Origin: a virus
Lineage: Duplodnaviria > Caudoviricetes
Virus record (IMG/VR): IMGVR_UViG_3300010362_000057
Coordinates: 1-35,088 of that record
Length of the DNA: 35,088 bases
Direction: 5' to 3' (one strand)
The translations under genes and the position numbers were made by a program. A model generated the notes under the pieces. It saw only the letters and a program-made list of their open reading frames with translations. It searched no databases and had not been told where the DNA came from. Below, piece after piece: positions 21,642 to 32,639 of the stretch; positions within the stretch are counted from its first letter, which is position 1; every line of letters starts with the position of its first letter.

Positions 21642-23125
21642 GAGAATAGCTTTGAAAAGGGGTCGTAGTAGGGCGCCTCGCGCGGCATGGCGAGGGCCTC
21701 GTCGGCCCATCGCTTGCGGTCGCCTAGGTCGGCGTCCTCGCCGCCGCCGCTGAGGGCGTACTGTAGGGCGTCGTGCGGGTGGCTGTATTCGTTCTTTTCG
21801 GCCGACTCGTCGAACCGCGGCCGGCCTGGGATTCGTAGCTGGCGGAATCGGTAGGTGCTGTTGAATCCCTTGCGTAGCAACGTGCAATTCGGACTGAGCA
21901 AAAAGCCGGGCGTCCCGCTGTCCACAAAGCGCATGAGCGGCCGGCGAACGGCCTCCCATCGGGCAATCGGCGCGTTCGTCGGCGCCGGCCAAATGTTGAG
22001 GCCGCTGCGGGCGCTGACAATCTCAATCCATGTCTGCTCGCCGGCGTCTTTGTCGGCGCCGTAGCTCGCGCTCGGGTCGGCCCATGCCGTGACAAAGCGC
22101 CACTCGTGGTAACGCTCGCGCATGATCTGGCCGATGCGTTCGCCGAATCGCGTGGCGCCGGTCCCCTGCTCGCCGACGATCTCCTCGTAGACTCGCCATT
22201 GGCCGCTCGGTAGGTGCTGCGTCACAACGGCGGCCGGCGATAGGCCGGCGTCGAAACCAAAGATGAGCGGCATGCCAGGGACGGGCAAAAGGCGCTGCGG
22301 CGCTACATGAATCGCGTCGCTGAATTCGGGATAGATGGGCTTGCCGTCGCGCGCGAAACCAAACTCGTTGAGGATGAACCGGCGCACCCACCATGCGGGT
22401 TGATTCCGTTCCTGCTCGGCGTAGTAGTCCTCGGGCAAGTTGGCGATGTTCTCGGCGCGCGAATCTCGCGCCGACGGCTGGCGGAAAAAGGAAACGTCGT
22501 CGGGCGAAACCGGGTTGCCGTCGCGGTCGCGGGCCTCAACGATTCGGTGGTAAACCCAATTCTCAACGTCGGGCGCGTTGAAATCCATGAGGATGCCCCA
22601 CCATGACGGGCCGCCATGCGCCATGTCGGGGAAGCGGCCGGCGCGGCTCCGCGCGTGGGTGTAAACGTCCTCCTCCATTAAGTCGGCCTCGTTCAAGTAG
22701 AACGCGGTCGGCTCGTAGCCTCTCATGGCCTCCTCGGCGCGTTGGTCGCCGATGGCGATAAAGTCGAGGATGAGAACGGCGCGCGTCCCGTCCGGCAAAT
22801 TGAAATACATGGTCGCCTGGGCGGGGTCGCCAAAGCCGCCGCTCCAATCGCCGGTGTCCTTCGGCATAAGCTTGAACCATGAGGGGATGGTGGTATCCCA
22901 AAGCTTGCGGTAGGTGTCGCGCACAACGCAGCATTTGAAATAGCGGATGCCGTCGAGGGGCGATGGCCGTTGAGCGGCGGCGAGGCGGATAAGCTTTGTG
23001 AATACTGTCCTCGTCTTGCCGCTGCCTATCGGTCCCATGATGGCGGCGGTGCGCGCCGCTGAGTTCATGAACGCCGACGCGACCGGGCCGGGCGATTTCC
23101 AAAACCGATGTAGGGCCTCGGTCAT
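21638..23125 (-). CDS. terL: Terminase large subunit
   Basis: Walker A GPIGSGKT, Walker B-like FYLNEA, coupling motif MDFNAP, nuclease GFDAG and C-terminal HPHDALQY; start trimmed to MTEALH (ATGA overlap). Confidence 0.92.
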   Translation of the reverse strand: MTEALHRFWKSPGPVASAFMNSAARTAAIMGPIGSGKTRTVFTKLIRLAAAQRPSPLDGIRYFKCCVVRDTYRKLWDTTIPSWFKLMPKDTGDWSGGFGDPAQATMYFNLPDGTRAVLILDFIAIGDQRAEEAMRGYEPTAFYLNEADLMEEDVYTHARSRAGRFPDMAHGGPSWWGILMDFNAPDVENWVYHRIVEARDRDGNPVSPDDVSFFRQPSARDSRAENIANLPEDYYAEQERNQPAWWVRRFILNEFGFARDGKPIYPEFSDAIHVAPQRLLPVPGMPLIFGFDAGLSPAAVVTQHLPSGQWRVYEEIVGEQGTGATRFGERIGQIMRERYHEWRFVTAWADPSASYGADKDAGEQTWIEIVSARSGLNIWPAPTNAPIARWEAVRRPLMRFVDSGTPGFLLSPNCTLLRKGFNSTYRFRQLRIPGRPRFDESAEKNEYSHPHDALQYALSGGGEDADLGDRKRWADEALAMPREAPYYDPFSKLFS

Positions 23126-23694
23126 AAGAGGCCGCCTTGCCAGGGGCCTTTGTGGGCCTTGTCCCAAATGAACCATGCCGAGTCGATCATGGTCTTACCG
23201 TCGCCCGGCTCGGGGAGTCGGCCGCGCTGCATCTGCAATCGGCCGCTGAACACTAGGACGCGCGCCAGCGGCGTCCGCTCGATGAATTGCTTTCGCTTGG
23301 CGCCGGCAATCCAGCCTAGGCGCAAGAGCATGGCTACCTTGCGCGACGCGCGGTTGAGCGCATGCCAAACGAATTCGTCGGCGAATTTGTAGGGCGGGTT
23401 GGTGACTATGTTCTCGGCGGTCGTCTGGTAGTCGAGTAGGAAATCAACGCCGGGCGTCCCGTACCCTCGGGCGATCAAATCGGTTGCGGTCACGGCGTAG
23501 CCGGCCTCGGTGAGAACCTTGGCGATGTCGCCGGCGCCGCAAGCCGGCTCCCATATGTCACCCTCGAATTTCTCGCCGTGGGCCTCCAGCCACGCCAGTA
23601 GGCGCAAGGTTCCCTCGGGCGGCGTCGGTGTGAAGTCGTCGCGCTCGCGCGCGCGCCGATCTGTGGCGATGCCGCGGGCGAACGGCGAGGTCAA
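23122..23694 (-). CDS. Orphan amino-DNA methyltransferase (probably N6-adenine)
   Basis: Motif I WEPACGAG, motif IV IVTNPPY, N-terminal DF.PTP and C-terminal AWFIW; TTG start overlaps the upstream TGA. Confidence 0.85.
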   Translation of the reverse strand: MTSPFARGIATDRRARERDDFTPTPPEGTLRLLAWLEAHGEKFEGDIWEPACGAGDIAKVLTEAGYAVTATDLIARGYGTPGVDFLLDYQTTAENIVTNPPYKFADEFVWHALNRASRKVAMLLRLGWIAGAKRKQFIERTPLARVLVFSGRLQMQRGRLPEPGDGKTMIDSAWFIWDKAHKGPWQGGLL

Positions 23695-23993
23695 CCGTCG
23701 CCCCTCACGGCCGGCGTGTCCTGCAAGCGACGCAAGAGGGCGGCCATCTGCATCATCGTCGGGTTGGCGAACCATAGCCAACCGCGCTCGTCGCCGTGGC
23801 GCGCGCGCGCCGCCTTCTTCTCGTTGAGGCCGGCGATGGCGAAGCTCGCCCGGCAATGGCGCTCGTGATCCGCGACAAGCTCGGCGGCGAGGCTCACAAG
23901 CTCGGCGAGGTCGCCGGCGAGGGCGCGCGTCGATTCCGGTGTCTGCGGCGGTAGGTGGCGGACCATCCCCGCCCCACTTTTCGCTCGGCTCAT
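23691..23993 (-). CDS. Hypothetical protein (100 aa)
   Basis: GGAGG RBS; coupled to the MTase gene. Confidence 0.55.
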   Translation of the reverse strand: MSRAKSGAGMVRHLPPQTPESTRALAGDLAELVSLAAELVADHERHCRASFAIAGLNEKKAARARHGDERGWLWFANPTMMQMAALLRRLQDTPAVRGDG

Positions 23994-24214: not shown

Positions 24215-24290
24215 TGTCAATGGCTTAGCCATCACGTTCCACCTTGGCGCGTTCCACCTTGTCGGGCGCCGGTGCGCTAAGCCTTTGATT
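24215..24290. promoter_or_regulatory. Inverted IHF-like sites flanking a 12-bp direct repeat (candidate packaging site)
   Basis: TGTCAATGGCTTA 24215-24227; CGTTCCACCTTG at 24235 and 24250; TAAGCCTTTGATT 24278-24290, an exact WATCAANNNNTTR on the minus strand. Confidence 0.45.
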
Positions 24291-24794
24291 TGGCGGGATA
24301 ACCTCAACGGGTATCACAATCGAGTCGCCGGGGGTGGCGGGGGCGGCCTCGGTCGCCTCGATGGTGAGGTAAACCACCTTGCGCTCGGTGAGGTTGACGG
24401 CGAGGGGTTGGCGTTGGTGTAGGAATGGGGCGAGGGCAATGGCCGCGTGGCGCTTTTCCTGCATCGCCTCAAGCTTTGTGCAGGCCAGTTGCGATGTGAG
24501 GTCGTCGACTCGCGCAACGGCGATCTGCGCTAGAACCTCAAGCGGCGACGCATAGCGGGCGAGGATGTAGTCGCACCATGCCTCGGTTCGGCGGTTCCTG
24601 CTGCCGGGCGGGCGGCCGGGGCGCCGGGCGCCGGCGGGGTCGGCGCCGGGCGCCGGCGAGGTCGGCGCCGGCCTGGGCGGCATGCCTAGCAAGTCCTCAA
24701 GGTCGATCTGCTCGGCCTGCTCGGCGCCGGGCGGCGCGTCGAGGCGGTCGAGGACGGTTTCAACGGCGGTTTTCAGGCCGCGTTCGGTACTCAT
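24225..24794 (-). CDS. terS: Probable terminase small subunit
   Basis: GRPPGSRNRRT followed by SPLEVL...AA.ALAP.LH...P; first gene of the late cluster, upstream of terL. Confidence 0.7.
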   Translation of the reverse strand: MSTERGLKTAVETVLDRLDAPPGAEQAEQIDLEDLLGMPPRPAPTSPAPGADPAGARRPGRPPGSRNRRTEAWCDYILARYASPLEVLAQIAVARVDDLTSQLACTKLEAMQEKRHAAIALAPFLHQRQPLAVNLTERKVVYLTIEATEAAPATPGDSIVIPVEVIPPNQRLSAPAPDKVERAKVERDG

Positions 24795-24819: not shown

Positions 24820-25070
24820 CCTCACGGAACCTCACTTAATCTGTGATATGCGCCATAGCGTGTAAGCCATTGGCGCGCCAAGCCTTTCATAGCTAACCTC
24901 ACAATCTCACAATCTCACAAGGGATGGGGCTAATGCGCGCGCGGGCGCGGCGCGCGGGCGCGCGCGCATATGTGTAAAAGTCGCGTGAGGTCGTGAGATT
25001 GTGAGGTCGGGCCGGAATCAACGGCTTAGGGATGGGGCGGGGGTGAGGGGCTGTGAGGTCGCGTGAGGTA
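24820..25070. repeat. Inverted 8-bp iteron arrays (RAYCTCAC) around a GC-rich core; probable replication origin
   Basis: CTCAC units at 24820, 24828, 24895, 24903 and 24911; inverted GTGAG units at 24985, 24993, 25001, 25043, 25053 and 25063; IHF consensus AATCAACGGCTTA at 25016-25028. Confidence 0.65.
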
Positions 25071-25223: not shown

Positions 25224-25300
25224 AATGCCAATGGTTGTCATTTTTCTGTGGATAACTCGGCTTTGCCCTCTTGACAGAATACCAATGGTTGTTACATAAG
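25224..25300 (+). promoter_or_regulatory. Rightward promoter of the small-ORF operon with two AATR-N-CAATGGTTG operators and a DnaA box
   Basis: TTGACA 25271-25276 with TACATA/CATAAG downstream; operators at 25224-25242 and 25278-25296; TGTGGATAA 25247-25255 is a perfect DnaA box. Confidence 0.65.
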
Positions 25301-25335: not shown

Positions 25336-25524
25336 ATGTCGCGCTTTACTGCTGATGAGGCTTTCGAGGCCGCGGATTGCGGCGAACCGATTGAGTTTGA
25401 ACCGGCCGCGGCGGTGCGCTGCGTCCAGTCTCACGGCGTTACCTGGGGCGAGTGGGAGTCCGATTGCGAGGACAAGACTCGCCTCTATCACGCCGACGCG
25501 ATTCTCGCGTGGCTCGGCTACTAA
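25336..25524 (+). CDS. Hypothetical early protein (62 aa, acidic)
   Basis: AAGGGA RBS; MSRFTADE...ILAWLGY. Confidence 0.7.
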   Translation: MSRFTADEAFEAADCGEPIEFEPAAAVRCVQSHGVTWGEWESDCEDKTRLYHADAILAWLGY

Positions 25525-25547: not shown

Positions 25548-25799
25548 ATGATCCTTTTTTTCCTCGATGCGGCCGGCGGCTTCACTTGCGGCGATACGGT
25601 CGCCGGCGTCGCTGAGTACGCTTATCCCTCGTCGATCTATGCGACGCTTGCCAAGCGGGAACCGGCCATCGCCGCGCGCGCGATGATTGCTAAGGCGATG
25701 GCGCGCGCGTCGCTGCCGGAGTCGCTTCGGCCGTCGGTCGCCGCGCGCGACTCGGCGTGGTTGGCGATGCTCGCTCGTGAGGGCGTGGCCGCGGACTAG
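25548..25799 (+). CDS. Hypothetical early protein (83 aa)
   Basis: GGAG RBS; its stop abuts hammerhead 1. Confidence 0.7.
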   Translation: MILFFLDAAGGFTCGDTVAGVAEYAYPSSIYATLAKREPAIAARAMIAKAMARASLPESLRPSVAARDSAWLAMLAREGVAAD

Positions 25800-25870
25800 G
25801 CCGAAAGGCGCCTCGGGCGCCTCCCGCGTCGATGCCGGCTATGGCGTGGCTGATGATGGCTCGCCGGCGA
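25799..25870 (+). ncRNA. Type II hammerhead ribozyme 1 with pseudoknot
   Basis: GGCC-GAAA-GGCGCC(UCG)GGCGCC-UC|CCGCGUC(GAUGCCGGCUAU)GGCGUGG-CUGAUGA-U-GGCU-C-GCCGGC. Full core, three stems, predicted cut after C25823. Confidence 0.9.
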
Positions 25871-25900
25871 AACCAACAAACCAAGCAAAGGACTCCAATC

Positions 25901-26047
25901 ATGTCGCGTAAGGATTTCATCGTAATTGCTGCGGCGCTCAAGGCGGCCTCGGCGTCTCTGTCGATCTGCGAGACTATGGCTAACCATCTGGCGACAACGA
26001 ATCGCGCCTTTGATCGGGCGCGGTTCCTGTCGGCCTGCGGTCACTGA
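25901..26047 (+). CDS. Hypothetical protein (48 aa)
   Basis: MSRKDFIVIAAAL...N.AFDR.RFL.ACG, a pattern I recognise from small phage proteins; AAAGGA RBS. Confidence 0.75.
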   Translation: MSRKDFIVIAAALKAASASLSICETMANHLATTNRAFDRARFLSACGH

Positions 26048-26063
26048 GGGGGGGGCGCGGTCG

Positions 26064-26321
26064 ATGTCTACTGAATTCAAGCTCATTCGGGCGAAGTTCG
26101 CCGGCAAGTGCGCTTGCTGCGGCCGGCGCGTTTACCGCGGCGAGTCCGTGGTCTGGAACATGGTGGCGCGCGCGGTCTCGCATGTCGCGTGTCACGGTGC
26201 GAAGTTTGGCAACGTGTCGGCGACGGTCGCCGGCGTCGATCACGGCGCTAACGACTATGCCGGCGACGGCCTCGACTCCCGCTATGAGGATGATTGCGCG
26301 CGGGCCTGCGGGCTGCTGTAG
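26064..26321 (+). CDS. Zn-finger-like hypothetical protein (85 aa)
   Basis: AKFAGKCACCG..V..G......H..C motif; GAGGGG RBS; start trimmed to MSTEFK. Confidence 0.7.
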   Translation: MSTEFKLIRAKFAGKCACCGRRVYRGESVVWNMVARAVSHVACHGAKFGNVSATVAGVDHGANDYAGDGLDSRYEDDCARACGLL

Positions 26322-26324
26322 TTC

Positions 26325-26407
26325 GCCGAAAGGCAACGGGCGCGCGGCGCTCGTTGCCTCCTGCGTCGATGCCGGCTATGGCGTGGCTGATGATGGCTCG
26401 CCGGCGA
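26325..26407 (+). ncRNA. Type II hammerhead ribozyme 2 with pseudoknot
   Basis: GCC-GAAA-GGCAACGGGCGC(GCG)GCGCUCGUUGCC-UC|CUGCGUC(GAUGCCGGCUAU)GGCGUGG-CUGAUGA-U-GGC-UC-GCCGGC; predicted cut after C26360. Confidence 0.9.
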
Positions 26408-26426: not shown

Positions 26427-26972
26427 ATGCAAATCGTCTCAATCGGAAAGCGGGGCGGCAAAGCCTCGCTGTTTACGGGCGGGGCCGTTCTCGGCCTCGT
26501 CCGTGTTGCTGATGGCGTGAATGAGTTTCCCGGCGTGTGGCTTGAATTGCCGCGGGATGAGCGCCACGGCGATAAGAAATTCTGCGTCGTGTTCTCGCTC
26601 GATGAGGCGCGGCGCCTCTGCTCGGCGTTGCCTGGGTTCCTCGATGCCGCGGCGAAGTCCTCGGCGTTGACGTTCGGCGGGTCTCTCGCCGGCGCGCGCA
26701 AGGTCGAGGTCGGCGAGGTCGGGCATACTTCGGTGAGTGGCGGGCAACGGGCGGAAGTCCAGACTCGCGACGGGCTTGTTATCGGCCATATGCGGCGCGC
26801 CAGCATGCCGGGCGATATGGGCGATCTCTACAGCGTCGATCTCGTCGCCAGCGATGCCGGGCCTTCTAAAGCAATCGGCGGGGCGTCTAGTGCGGCGCGC
26901 GCGGTCGCAATGCTCGTCGAGGCTTGGAATGAGCGGCTAGACAAGTTTGCGGCGTCGGGGGTGCGGTCGTGA
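26427..26972 (+). CDS. Hypothetical protein (181 aa)
   Basis: AAGGAG RBS directly after hammerhead 2. Confidence 0.7.
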   Translation: MQIVSIGKRGGKASLFTGGAVLGLVRVADGVNEFPGVWLELPRDERHGDKKFCVVFSLDEARRLCSALPGFLDAAAKSSALTFGGSLAGARKVEVGEVGHTSVSGGQRAEVQTRDGLVIGHMRRASMPGDMGDLYSVDLVASDAGPSKAIGGASSAARAVAMLVEAWNERLDKFAASGVRS

Positions 26973-27235
26973 GTCGCAAGGTCACGGTTTGGCAACGGTG
27001 GGACTCGTCTGATCCTGCGGAGTCCGACTCGTTCTTCGCTACCAAGGGCGAGGCTCTAGCGGATATGCGGAGTCTGTACGGGGTCAAAGGCGCGGCGACG
27101 CGCACGGATGGCCGGCTGATGGAATGGGACTATGAGAACGCGGGCGGGTCTCAAACCGTCTACATTCGGCCGGTCGAGGTCACTATGACGGGCGCCGGCG
27201 TGGCGCATGCCCTCGGATGGGCGCCGAATCGGTGA
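26969..27235 (+). CDS. Hypothetical protein (88 aa)
   Basis: GTGA overlap with the upstream gene. Confidence 0.7.
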   Translation: MSRKVTVWQRWDSSDPAESDSFFATKGEALADMRSLYGVKGAATRTDGRLMEWDYENAGGSQTVYIRPVEVTMTGAGVAHALGWAPNR

Positions 27236-27284: not shown

Positions 27285-27315
27285 GCGGCGGCCCTCGGGC
27301 CGCCGCTCTTTTTTT
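27285..27315 (+). terminator. Intrinsic terminator of the small-ORF operon
   Basis: GCGGCGGCCC-TC-GGGCCGCCGC followed by TCTTTTTTT, at a convergent junction. Confidence 0.85.
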
Positions 27316-32330: not shown

Positions 32331-32395
32331 ATTGCCTCGGGGGCAAAAAAAAGCGAATAACAATGGTTGCTATTTCCCGCCGGGTGCATTATCTA
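32331..32395 (+). promoter_or_regulatory. Promoter of the HTH-integrase operon, carrying both operator types
   Basis: ATTGCC-TCGGG-GGCAAA 32331-32347; AATAACAATGGTTGCTATT 32356-32374; TTGCTA-N17-TATCTA ends 7 nt before ATG 32403, consistent with a leaderless mRNA. Confidence 0.6.
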
Positions 32396-32402
32396 ATTGC
32401 GA

Positions 32403-32639
32403 ATGAACGCCAGTGATCTGTTAAGATGGCGCGAGTCCTGCGAATTGACGCAAGCTCAAGCCGCCGAAATGCTCGGGATAGCTAAGAGCATGTTTTGCAA
32501 TTACGAGTGGGGGAACCATGAAATCCCGCTCAAGATTCGGCTTGCCTGTGCGGCAATCGCGCTCGGCATAACAGACTACAGCGGGCCGCCGCCAACAAAC
32601 AAATCAAGCAAAGGAGTCTCTGATGATTCGCGTTCCTAA
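32403..32639 (+). CDS. Second XRE-family HTH regulator (78 aa)
   Basis: DLLRWR...LTQAQAAEMLG.......YE.G..EIP..I.LAC.A. Confidence 0.85.
   Translation: MNASDLLRWRESCELTQAQAAEMLGIAKSMFCNYEWGNHEIPLKIRLACAAIALGITDYSGPPPTNKSSKGVSDDSRS

What the first reader, a model, noticed from the sequence alone, without database searches (positions are those of the whole stretch)
25799..26407. Tandem type II hammerhead ribozymes punctuate a phage early operon
Seen: two intergenic elements each have the complete core in type II order: stem II, GAAA, stem III, UC, stem I, CUGAUGA, stem II'. Both carry an extra U after A9 and a 6-bp pseudoknot between loop I (GCCGGC) and the 3' tail. Stem III differs in sequence and length (6 versus 12 bp) yet pairs fully in both, which acts as internal covariation. 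Each starts within 4 nt of a stop codon and is followed by an RBS. Established: such hammerheads, including 9/10.1 insertions and pseudoknots, are active and occur in bacterial and phage DNA, mostly without known function. Inference: the phage self-processes one polycistronic mRNA into three two-gene units with 5'-OH ends, tuning stability and translation without host RNases.
Basis: partly seen in the sequence, partly recalled or inferred. Interest (0 to 1): 0.9.

Follow-up and report, generated by a model that had tools for sequence, protein, structure and literature searches.

The report
Two hammerhead ribozymes between phage genes
Two well-formed hammerhead self-cutting RNA motifs sit between small genes of a soil phage and likely cut its multi-gene message into three pieces; this layout has been known in phages since 2011, so it is a sound but ordinary example.

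Summary
Observation confirmed. Two type II hammerhead motifs lie at 25800-25868 and 26325-26405 (+), with predicted cuts after C25823 and C26360, a U after A9 and a 6-bp loop I/3'-tail pseudoknot. None arise in 300 shuffles; a model built from 65 other phages' copies finds only these two (E about 2e-8 and 1e-5). Rfam misses them but scores sister elements as Hammerhead_II. The U-insertion form is common in IMG/VR (about 1600 stretches estimated) and sits right after stop codons (109 of 143 against 4.6% by chance). This scan found the same layout on at least 19 other genomes. Peculiar here: a palindromic pseudoknot stronger than in all 149 comparison elements, weak G-U-rich stem I, CUC triplet. 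The operon is an accessory insert beside the putative terS gene; a relative carries ArdC there. No RNA data: cleavage and purpose are inferred. New member of a known kind.

The parts
25224..25238 (.). Operator-like box 1 (AATNCCAATGGTTGT), inferred repressor site
   Evidence: Exact second copy 54 bp downstream and a 2-mismatch copy at 32356 upstream of an HTH gene; weak statistics (8 of 100 shuffles reach 3 matches at 3 mismatches)
25271..25298 (+). Putative sigma-70-type promoter: TTGACA, 16 nt, TACATA; operator-like box 2 (25278-25292) lies in the spacer
   Evidence: Read by eye; the strict scan found 0 promoters because the -10 lacks the last T. Inferred
25336..25524 (+). ORF1, 62 aa, unknown function
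   Evidence: phrog_25588, E 1e-5; GC3 0.73
25548..25799 (+). ORF2, 83 aa, unknown function; its TAG abuts HHR1
   Evidence: no family; GC3 0.81
25800..25868 (+). HHR1, type II hammerhead with extra U after A9 and palindromic pseudoknot; predicted cut after C25823
   Evidence: 39.7 bits
25901..26047 (+). ORF3, 48 aa, unknown function
   Evidence: phrog_19432, E 1e-4; a homolog in L129 lies directly behind an Rfam Hammerhead_II hit
26064..26321 (+). ORF4, 85 aa, Cys-rich family with a conserved C-terminal AGDGLD motif, unknown function
   Evidence: 22 homologs, alignment A1
26325..26405 (+). HHR2, same type, 12-bp stem III; predicted cut after C26360
   Evidence: 28.9 bits
26427..26972 (+). ORF5, 181 aa, orphan
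   Evidence: only itself; itself and one repeat-protein hit judged spurious; no named fold
26969..27235 (+). ORF6, 88 aa, overlaps ORF5 stop (GTGA), unknown function
27285..27314 (+). Intrinsic-terminator-like hairpin (9 G-C pairs) with U tract closing the operon

Best explanation
Two type II hammerhead motifs sit at gene junctions of a six-gene accessory operon of a temperate soil podovirus and likely cut its transcript, after C25823 and C26360, into three two-gene RNAs whose new ends are predicted to be capped by structure. The type II order suits this: after the cut, stem III stays as a hairpin (plus cyclic phosphate) on the upstream piece, and stem I with the pseudoknot stays on the 5'-OH end of the downstream piece, 20-30 nt ahead of an unstructured ribosome-binding site, while only the 3-bp stem II joins the two pieces. 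The expected result (inferred) is that each unit decays and is translated independently of its neighbours and is shielded from end-dependent nucleases, without a host RNase. Shown: motif, placement, family-level covariation. From the literature: such arrays cleave. Inferred: that these copies cleave in the host, and that protection is the purpose.
For: All core nucleotides and pairs present; 0 in 300 shuffles; model from 65 other elements gives 39.7 and 28.9 bits, next best 9.8; in the family alignment 19 of 21 pairs, including 6 of 6 pseudoknot pairs, change on both sides. Placement is a family rule: ORF end within -2..+6 nt in 109 of 143 elements (control 328 of 7150) and SD plus start within 50 nt in 114 of 143 (control 872 of 7150); all 28 multi-copy loci keep their copies on one strand. 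The upstream products fold with the stem III hairpin at the very end. Tandem arrays from three bacteria cleaved in vitro and the Agrobacterium array in E. coli (PMC3088659). Hairpin-bearing ribozymes upstream of an RBS raise expression in engineered constructs (PMC6993053 passages). That RNase E prefers 5'-monophosphate ends is recalled, not from a call.
Against: No RNA data. Nested folding gives stems I and II near-zero probability in context; the nested active fold lies 6.7 and 9.6 kcal/mol above the minimum, larger than in all but 3 and 1 of 149 comparison elements, and stem I of HHR2 is among the weakest (8 of 149 as weak); only the unusually strong pseudoknot closes the gap in that rough sum. 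The triplet is CUC (9 of 151; GUC 137). An extra A at the same place moderately lowered the rate in a viroid hammerhead (PMC1636495). A 5'-OH end is an entry for RNase J1 on glmS mRNA (PMC3997798), so cutting may destabilise. The genes do not need the ribozymes: 0 of 20 ORF4-homolog loci and 14 of 15 portal relatives gave no hit.
Confidence: 0.55

Rival explanations
1. The ribozymes cleave, but to shorten expression: the 5'-OH pieces are degraded faster (as for glmS via RNase J), giving a brief pulse of early proteins.
For: glmS precedent (PMC3997798 passages); the likely host is an alphaproteobacterium (prophage relatives at 61-62% portal identity in Stellaceae and Aliidongia MAGs), a group recalled to have RNase J; operator-like boxes suggest tight control.
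Against: The cut leaves a paired first nucleotide and a pseudoknot at the new 5' end, unlike an open entry site; the same design recurs before strong RBSs across unrelated phages.
Confidence: 0.17
2. The elements matter mainly as DNA repeats: ribozyme + RBS cassettes are joints at which small accessory genes are gained, lost or swapped, and cleavage is secondary.
For: Near-identical 61-nt repeat flanks a two-gene block; the operon is absent from 4 of 5 distinct relatives that show both flanking genes; ORF4 homologs in L162, L165, L171 and L183 are flanked by other, non-hammerhead repeats in the same slot.
Against: Catalytic core and pseudoknot are kept with covariation, which a recombination site would not need; no close relative was found to show a swap at these repeats.
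Confidence: 0.12
3. These two copies are slow or misfolded in vivo, decayed members of the family with little effect on the mRNA.
For: Weak G-U-rich stem I, CUC triplet, large nested-fold gap, below Rfam threshold; 4 of 18 consensus hammerheads were inactive in PMC3088659.
Against: No core mismatch in either copy; the one stem I difference keeps pairing (C-G to U-G); both distal stems III pair fully; the pseudoknot is stronger than in all 149 comparison elements.
Confidence: 0.09
4. The 537-nt middle unit (ORF3 + ORF4) is religated into a circular mRNA, by a hybrid hammerhead formed from its two ends or by a host RtcB-type ligase.
For: Identical stem II in both copies lets the 5' half of HHR2 and the 3' half of HHR1 rebuild a full core (nested energy -35.9 kcal/mol); the ends have the right chemistry (recalled).
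Against: PMC3088659 looked for circular and spliced products of tandem arrays and found none; a 3-bp stem II favours release; any pair of similar copies gives such a hybrid; many loci show a single copy (56 of 77 long loci).
Confidence: 0.07

Closest known systems
Type II hammerhead ribozymes with loop I / 3'-tail pseudoknot (Rfam RF02276 Hammerhead_II; Perreault et al. 2011, PMC3088659)
   Same: Permutation, all core nucleotides, short stem II, pseudoknot of 4 or more pairs; sister elements with the same extra U score above the gathering cut-off (26 hits in 14 of 20 loci).
   Different: The window's copies stay below Rfam's thresholds; stem I hairpin is 26 nt (21-24 in 104 of 110 comparison elements); CUC triplet; palindromic all-GC pseudoknot with a 2-nt linker; extra U after A9, which the Rfam consensus treats as an insert.
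Clustered hammerheads flanking genes or short gene blocks in prophages (C. scindens, A. caulinodans, A. tumefaciens ardA array; PMC3088659)
   Same: Tandem ribozymes between small genes of a temperate phage; proposed processing into gene- or operon-length mRNAs; anti-restriction genes nearby in the group (ArdC in relative L146).
   Different: Six genes of unknown function, none matching ArdA or ArdC; activity untested here.
CChMVd (+) hammerhead with an extra A between A9 and G10.1 (PMC1636495 passage)
   Same: One-nucleotide insertion at the same core position in a natural, active hammerhead.
   Different: A instead of U, in a viroid, explained there by the viroid's overall fold.
RNase III processing of the phage T7 early transcript (recalled) and RiboJ-type insulators (PMC6993053 passages)
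   Same: A long transcript is cut into units with structured ends ahead of the RBS: what it works like.
   Different: Host enzyme or engineered part; here the cut is autocatalytic and natural.

Membership tests
Hammerhead ribozyme | Core C3 U4 G5 A6 N7 G8 A9, G12 A13 A14 A15, U16, H17 | tested here: met
   Both copies; criteria as in PMC3088659 methods
Hammerhead ribozyme | Three stems paired next to the core (1.1-2.1, 10.1-11.1, A15.1-U16.1) | tested here: met
   C-G, G-C and A-U in both copies, with one U inserted between A9 and G10.1; insertions of one or two nucleotides beside CUGAnGA occur in known alignments (PMC10085705 passage)
Hammerhead ribozyme | Site-specific self-cleavage 3' of H17 giving 2',3'-cyclic phosphate and 5'-OH | not testable with these tools
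   No RNA run holds this stretch; needs an assay
Type II hammerhead (RF02276) | Stem II open, stems I and III closed by loops | tested here: met
   type I and III descriptors give no hit in the window
Type II hammerhead (RF02276) | Pseudoknot of 4 or more pairs between loop I and the tail after stem II | tested here: met
   6 G-C pairs in both copies; covaries in the family; formation itself is predicted
Type II hammerhead (RF02276) | Score at or above the Rfam gathering cut-off (37 bits) | tested here: not met
   0 hits. This lowers 'is an RF02276 hit', not 'is a type II hammerhead': a model of Rfam-like sister elements finds both
Clustered prophage hammerheads (Perreault 2011) | Several copies on one strand flanking genes or short gene blocks in a temperate phage | tested here: met
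   2 copies, 2-gene blocks; integrase, repressor-like HTH, portal, capsid and terminase genes in the window
Clustered prophage hammerheads (Perreault 2011) | Processing of the polycistronic transcript in cells | not testable with these tools
   no RNA data

The most novel reading that the evidence does not exclude
The two cuts release a 537-nt two-gene RNA whose ends rebuild a hybrid hammerhead held by the unusually strong palindromic pseudoknot and close into a circular, exonuclease-proof phage mRNA; and the stop codon fused to stem II lets terminating ribosomes decide between linear release and circle. That would be a natural bacterial circular mRNA made by RNA catalysis.
Probability: 0.07. 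Interest if true: 0.75.

Novelty: new member of a known kind. Interest (0 to 1): 0.3.

Why it matters
The purpose of self-cleaving ribozymes near phage genes is still open (PMC6765202 passage), and this operon is a compact test case: promoter, six genes, two cuts, terminator in 2 kb. It does not by itself move the question, since the phage is uncultured and the genes are of unknown function. The more useful by-product is family-wide: these elements sit on the stop codon of the upstream gene (74 of 143 overlap it by one base or abut it), a constraint I did not find stated in the passages read or in searches, and one that can be tested by moving the stop.

Tried and rejected
Rfam on the window: nothing at gathering, only chance matches at E up to 10. 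Single-strand folding does not recover the hammerhead fold (z -0.04 and -2.1), as expected for pseudoknots. An alternative type I or III reading using the second GAAA after HHR1 fails to pair. An exact 17-letter viral scan gave 9 loci, none with a hammerhead: chance. blastn against cultured phages: no relative of the operon. TerL search: 1 distant locus. Sequencing runs: one DNA holder, possibly the source, and no RNA holder listed, which says nothing about expression; its contigs break at a 45-nt node of about double depth, as two real copies would give, and list no joint between the repeats (low depth, not independent). Gene functions: no informative Pfam, PHROG or Atlas result for ORF1-6; the P0025 hit is a repeat-rich protein at 22% and was rejected. 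Whether the extra U or these elements stand in Dataset S1 of PMC3088659 could not be seen: the text held has no searchable sequence, figures are not held, and Figure S6 came out unreadable. A search for the insertion in print gave nothing useful until. A viral scan for the L165 motif found 0. No earlier notes on this genome. A search for natural circles from tandem phage ribozymes listed 7 papers, none on the point by title or abstract start.

Full report
Setting. The 35,088-base window is a whole contig of a temperate podovirus: tail, internal virion, capsid, portal and terminase genes on the minus strand, primase genes, HTH regulators and an integrase. The nearest cultured portals are about 44% identical (HTVC010P group); prophage relatives at 61-62% lie in Stellaceae and Aliidongia MAGs, so a soil alphaproteobacterial host is likely; the only run holding the stretch is a soil metagenome. 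Between the primase-helicase block and the putative terS gene (24225-24794; named by position, no family hit) lies a 2-kb operon on the opposite strand: promoter-like site at 25271-25298, six small ORFs with coding-like GC3 of 0.69-0.81, and a terminator-like hairpin at 27285-27314.

Observation. A type II descriptor finds only these two in the window and none in 300 dinucleotide shuffles on both strands. Rfam misses them. I therefore collected other examples: a scan of IMG/VR for core letters only, including the extra U, returned 123 loci from 5 of 64 parts (about 1600 stretches estimated), and 118 of the 123 pair fully although pairing was not asked for. With 12 loci from a narrower scan (5 real) and L159 this gave 151 distinct elements, the window's two included. 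Rfam elements in 14 of 20 such loci Hammerhead_II and shows the U as an insert. A covariance model from 65 diverse elements (chosen from 110 with the extra U and a short stem III, none from the window) finds the two window copies at 39.7 and 28.9 bits, next best 9.8; its core letters were preselected by my pattern, so its independence lies in the stems. On that alignment 85.8% of cells pair against 64.1% in shuffles, and 19 of 21 pairs change on both sides, including all six pseudoknot pairs (the structure was named by me and the sequences are partly related).

What is particular here. The cleavage triplet is CUC (9 of 151; 137 GUC). Stem I is G-U-rich and weak, the nested active fold lies 6.7 and 9.6 kcal/mol above the minimum (exceeded or matched by 3 and 1 of 149 others), and the loop-tail duplex (-14.6, -15.2 kcal/mol) is stronger than in all 149. 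Adding the duplex brings both into the family range, a rough sum that ignores pseudoknot penalties. With flanking coding sequence, nested folding gives stems I and II near-zero probability; in a cell that sequence would be under ribosomes (inference). Loop and tail are both palindromic, so cross-pairing between copies is possible; the genome is GC-rich and this may be incidental.

Context across phages. In 143 elements with enough flank, an ORF of 40 codons or more ends within -2..+6 nt of stem II in 109 (random positions: 328 of 7150) and an SD plus start follows within 50 nt in 114 (872 of 7150); in 41 the last base of the stop codon is the first base of stem II and in 33 it abuts. Many of these phages are related, so the counts overstate independent cases. 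All 28 multi-copy loci keep copies on one strand; 21 of 77 long loci hold two or more. The extra U is optional: 26 of 36 copies found outside my pattern lack it. An ORF3 homolog in L129 lies directly behind a hammerhead. Against a fixed gene-ribozyme link: 20 ORF4-homolog loci (22 found besides the window's own record, 2 duplicates dropped) have no hit with my model or with Rfam hammerheads, and of 15 portal relatives only the distant L159 (38%) has hammerheads, five of them (Rfam on 8 of the 15: none). Of five distinct relatives showing both primase-helicase and terS, four have gaps of 390-660 nt and one of 2 kb, against 3 kb here: the operon is an accessory insert. A close relative, L146 (portal 73%), has an inverted operon at the same slot that opens with ArdC. 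This, and two operator-like boxes at the promoter with a third upstream of an HTH gene (weak statistics), make 'early, counter-defence-type operon' reasonable but unproven; a lysogen-expressed unit is not excluded.

Mechanism. Most likely the transcript is cut twice, giving ORF1-2 (native 5' end), ORF3-4 (537 nt) and ORF5-6 (about 950 nt). The type II order leaves stem III as a terminal hairpin on the upstream piece and stem I plus pseudoknot on the downstream piece, with only three pairs to melt; a ribosome ending at the adjoining stop would help to part them (inference). I read this as insulation and end protection (0.55), with destabilisation (0.17), DNA cassette joints (0.12), decayed copies (0.09) and circles (0.07) as rivals. 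That the motifs are genuine hammerheads I put at about 0.93, that they cleave usefully at about 0.85.

Comparison with what is known. PMC3088659 (read: parts 1-6 of 8, that is the main text, methods and supplement legends; supplement list; Figure S6 text; Dataset S1 searched but without readable sequence) reports type II hammerheads, the loop I/tail pseudoknot, clusters flanking genes or short gene blocks in prophages, their processing into gene-length RNAs in vitro for three arrays and in E. coli for one next to ardA, and a failed search for circles and splice products. PMC6765202 (passages) repeats the processing hypothesis and calls the purpose unresolved. PMC10085705 (passages) notes insertions of up to two nucleotides beside CUGAnGA; PMC1636495 and PMC3705267 (passages) describe the extra A of CChMVd at this position; PMC3997798 and PMC6993053 (passages) give the two opposite precedents for stability. 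T7 RNase III processing, RNase E end preference, RtcB chemistry and RNase J in alphaproteobacteria are recalled. The unreadable Dataset S1 and Figure 5 may already show the U insertion. This scan has noted the same layout on at least 19 other genomes (unchecked notes, no independent support).

Verdict. Real, well-formed, and a new member of a known kind; interest 0.3.

Noticed in passing
L165 1171-1236 and 2365-2433: Two copies of a roughly 70-nt structured intergenic element (hairpin with a kept AGTGACAG loop and fully changed, still paired stem, then a second hairpin), after a stop and before an RBS, next to an ORF4 homolog. Not a hammerhead; no Rfam match at E up to 1; 0 matches in viral contigs. 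Candidate new RNA motif in the ribozyme slot.
   Followed up: partly
L162 357-394, 751-811, 1496-1553; L166 after 1426; L171 810-845 and 1161-1198; L183 3137-3187 and 4505-4555: Other repeated hairpin elements just ahead of RBSs in operons with ORF4 homologs; no Rfam match.
   Followed up: partly
151 type II elements in L011-L159 and the window: The upstream stop codon overlaps stem II by one base in 41 and abuts it in 33 of 143 elements.
   Followed up: partly
L146 1677-2576 (-); L180 3898-4803 (-): ArdC anti-restriction genes; in L146 it opens an inverted operon beside terS, under a TTGACG promoter with two copies of a palindromic operator-like box, the same design as in the window.
   Followed up: partly
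L159 17-2329 (-): Five type II hammerheads without the extra U, with a bulged long stem III and no clear pseudoknot, between pentapeptide-repeat and small genes; missed by Rfam.
   Followed up: partly
window 25224-25238, 25278-25292, 32356-32370: Operator-like box at the operon promoter (twice) and upstream of the HTH gene 32403-32639 that precedes the integrase: possible shared regulator.
   Followed up: partly
window 25869-25903 and 32591-32625: The A/C-rich leader behind HHR1 resembles the leader of the integrase gene (about 25 nt): a reused translation-start module.
   Followed up: no
window 24886-25015: Repeated CTCACAAT units as an inverted repeat around a GC palindrome, upstream of the putative terS: origin- or packaging-site-like.
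   Followed up: no
window 23122-23856 (-): DNA methyltransferase-like gene between putative terS and terL (phrog_799), shared with L148.
   Followed up: no
L029, L057, L016: Arrays of 7, 5 or more and 4 or more type II hammerheads in unrelated phages, mixing copies with and without the extra U.
   Followed up: no
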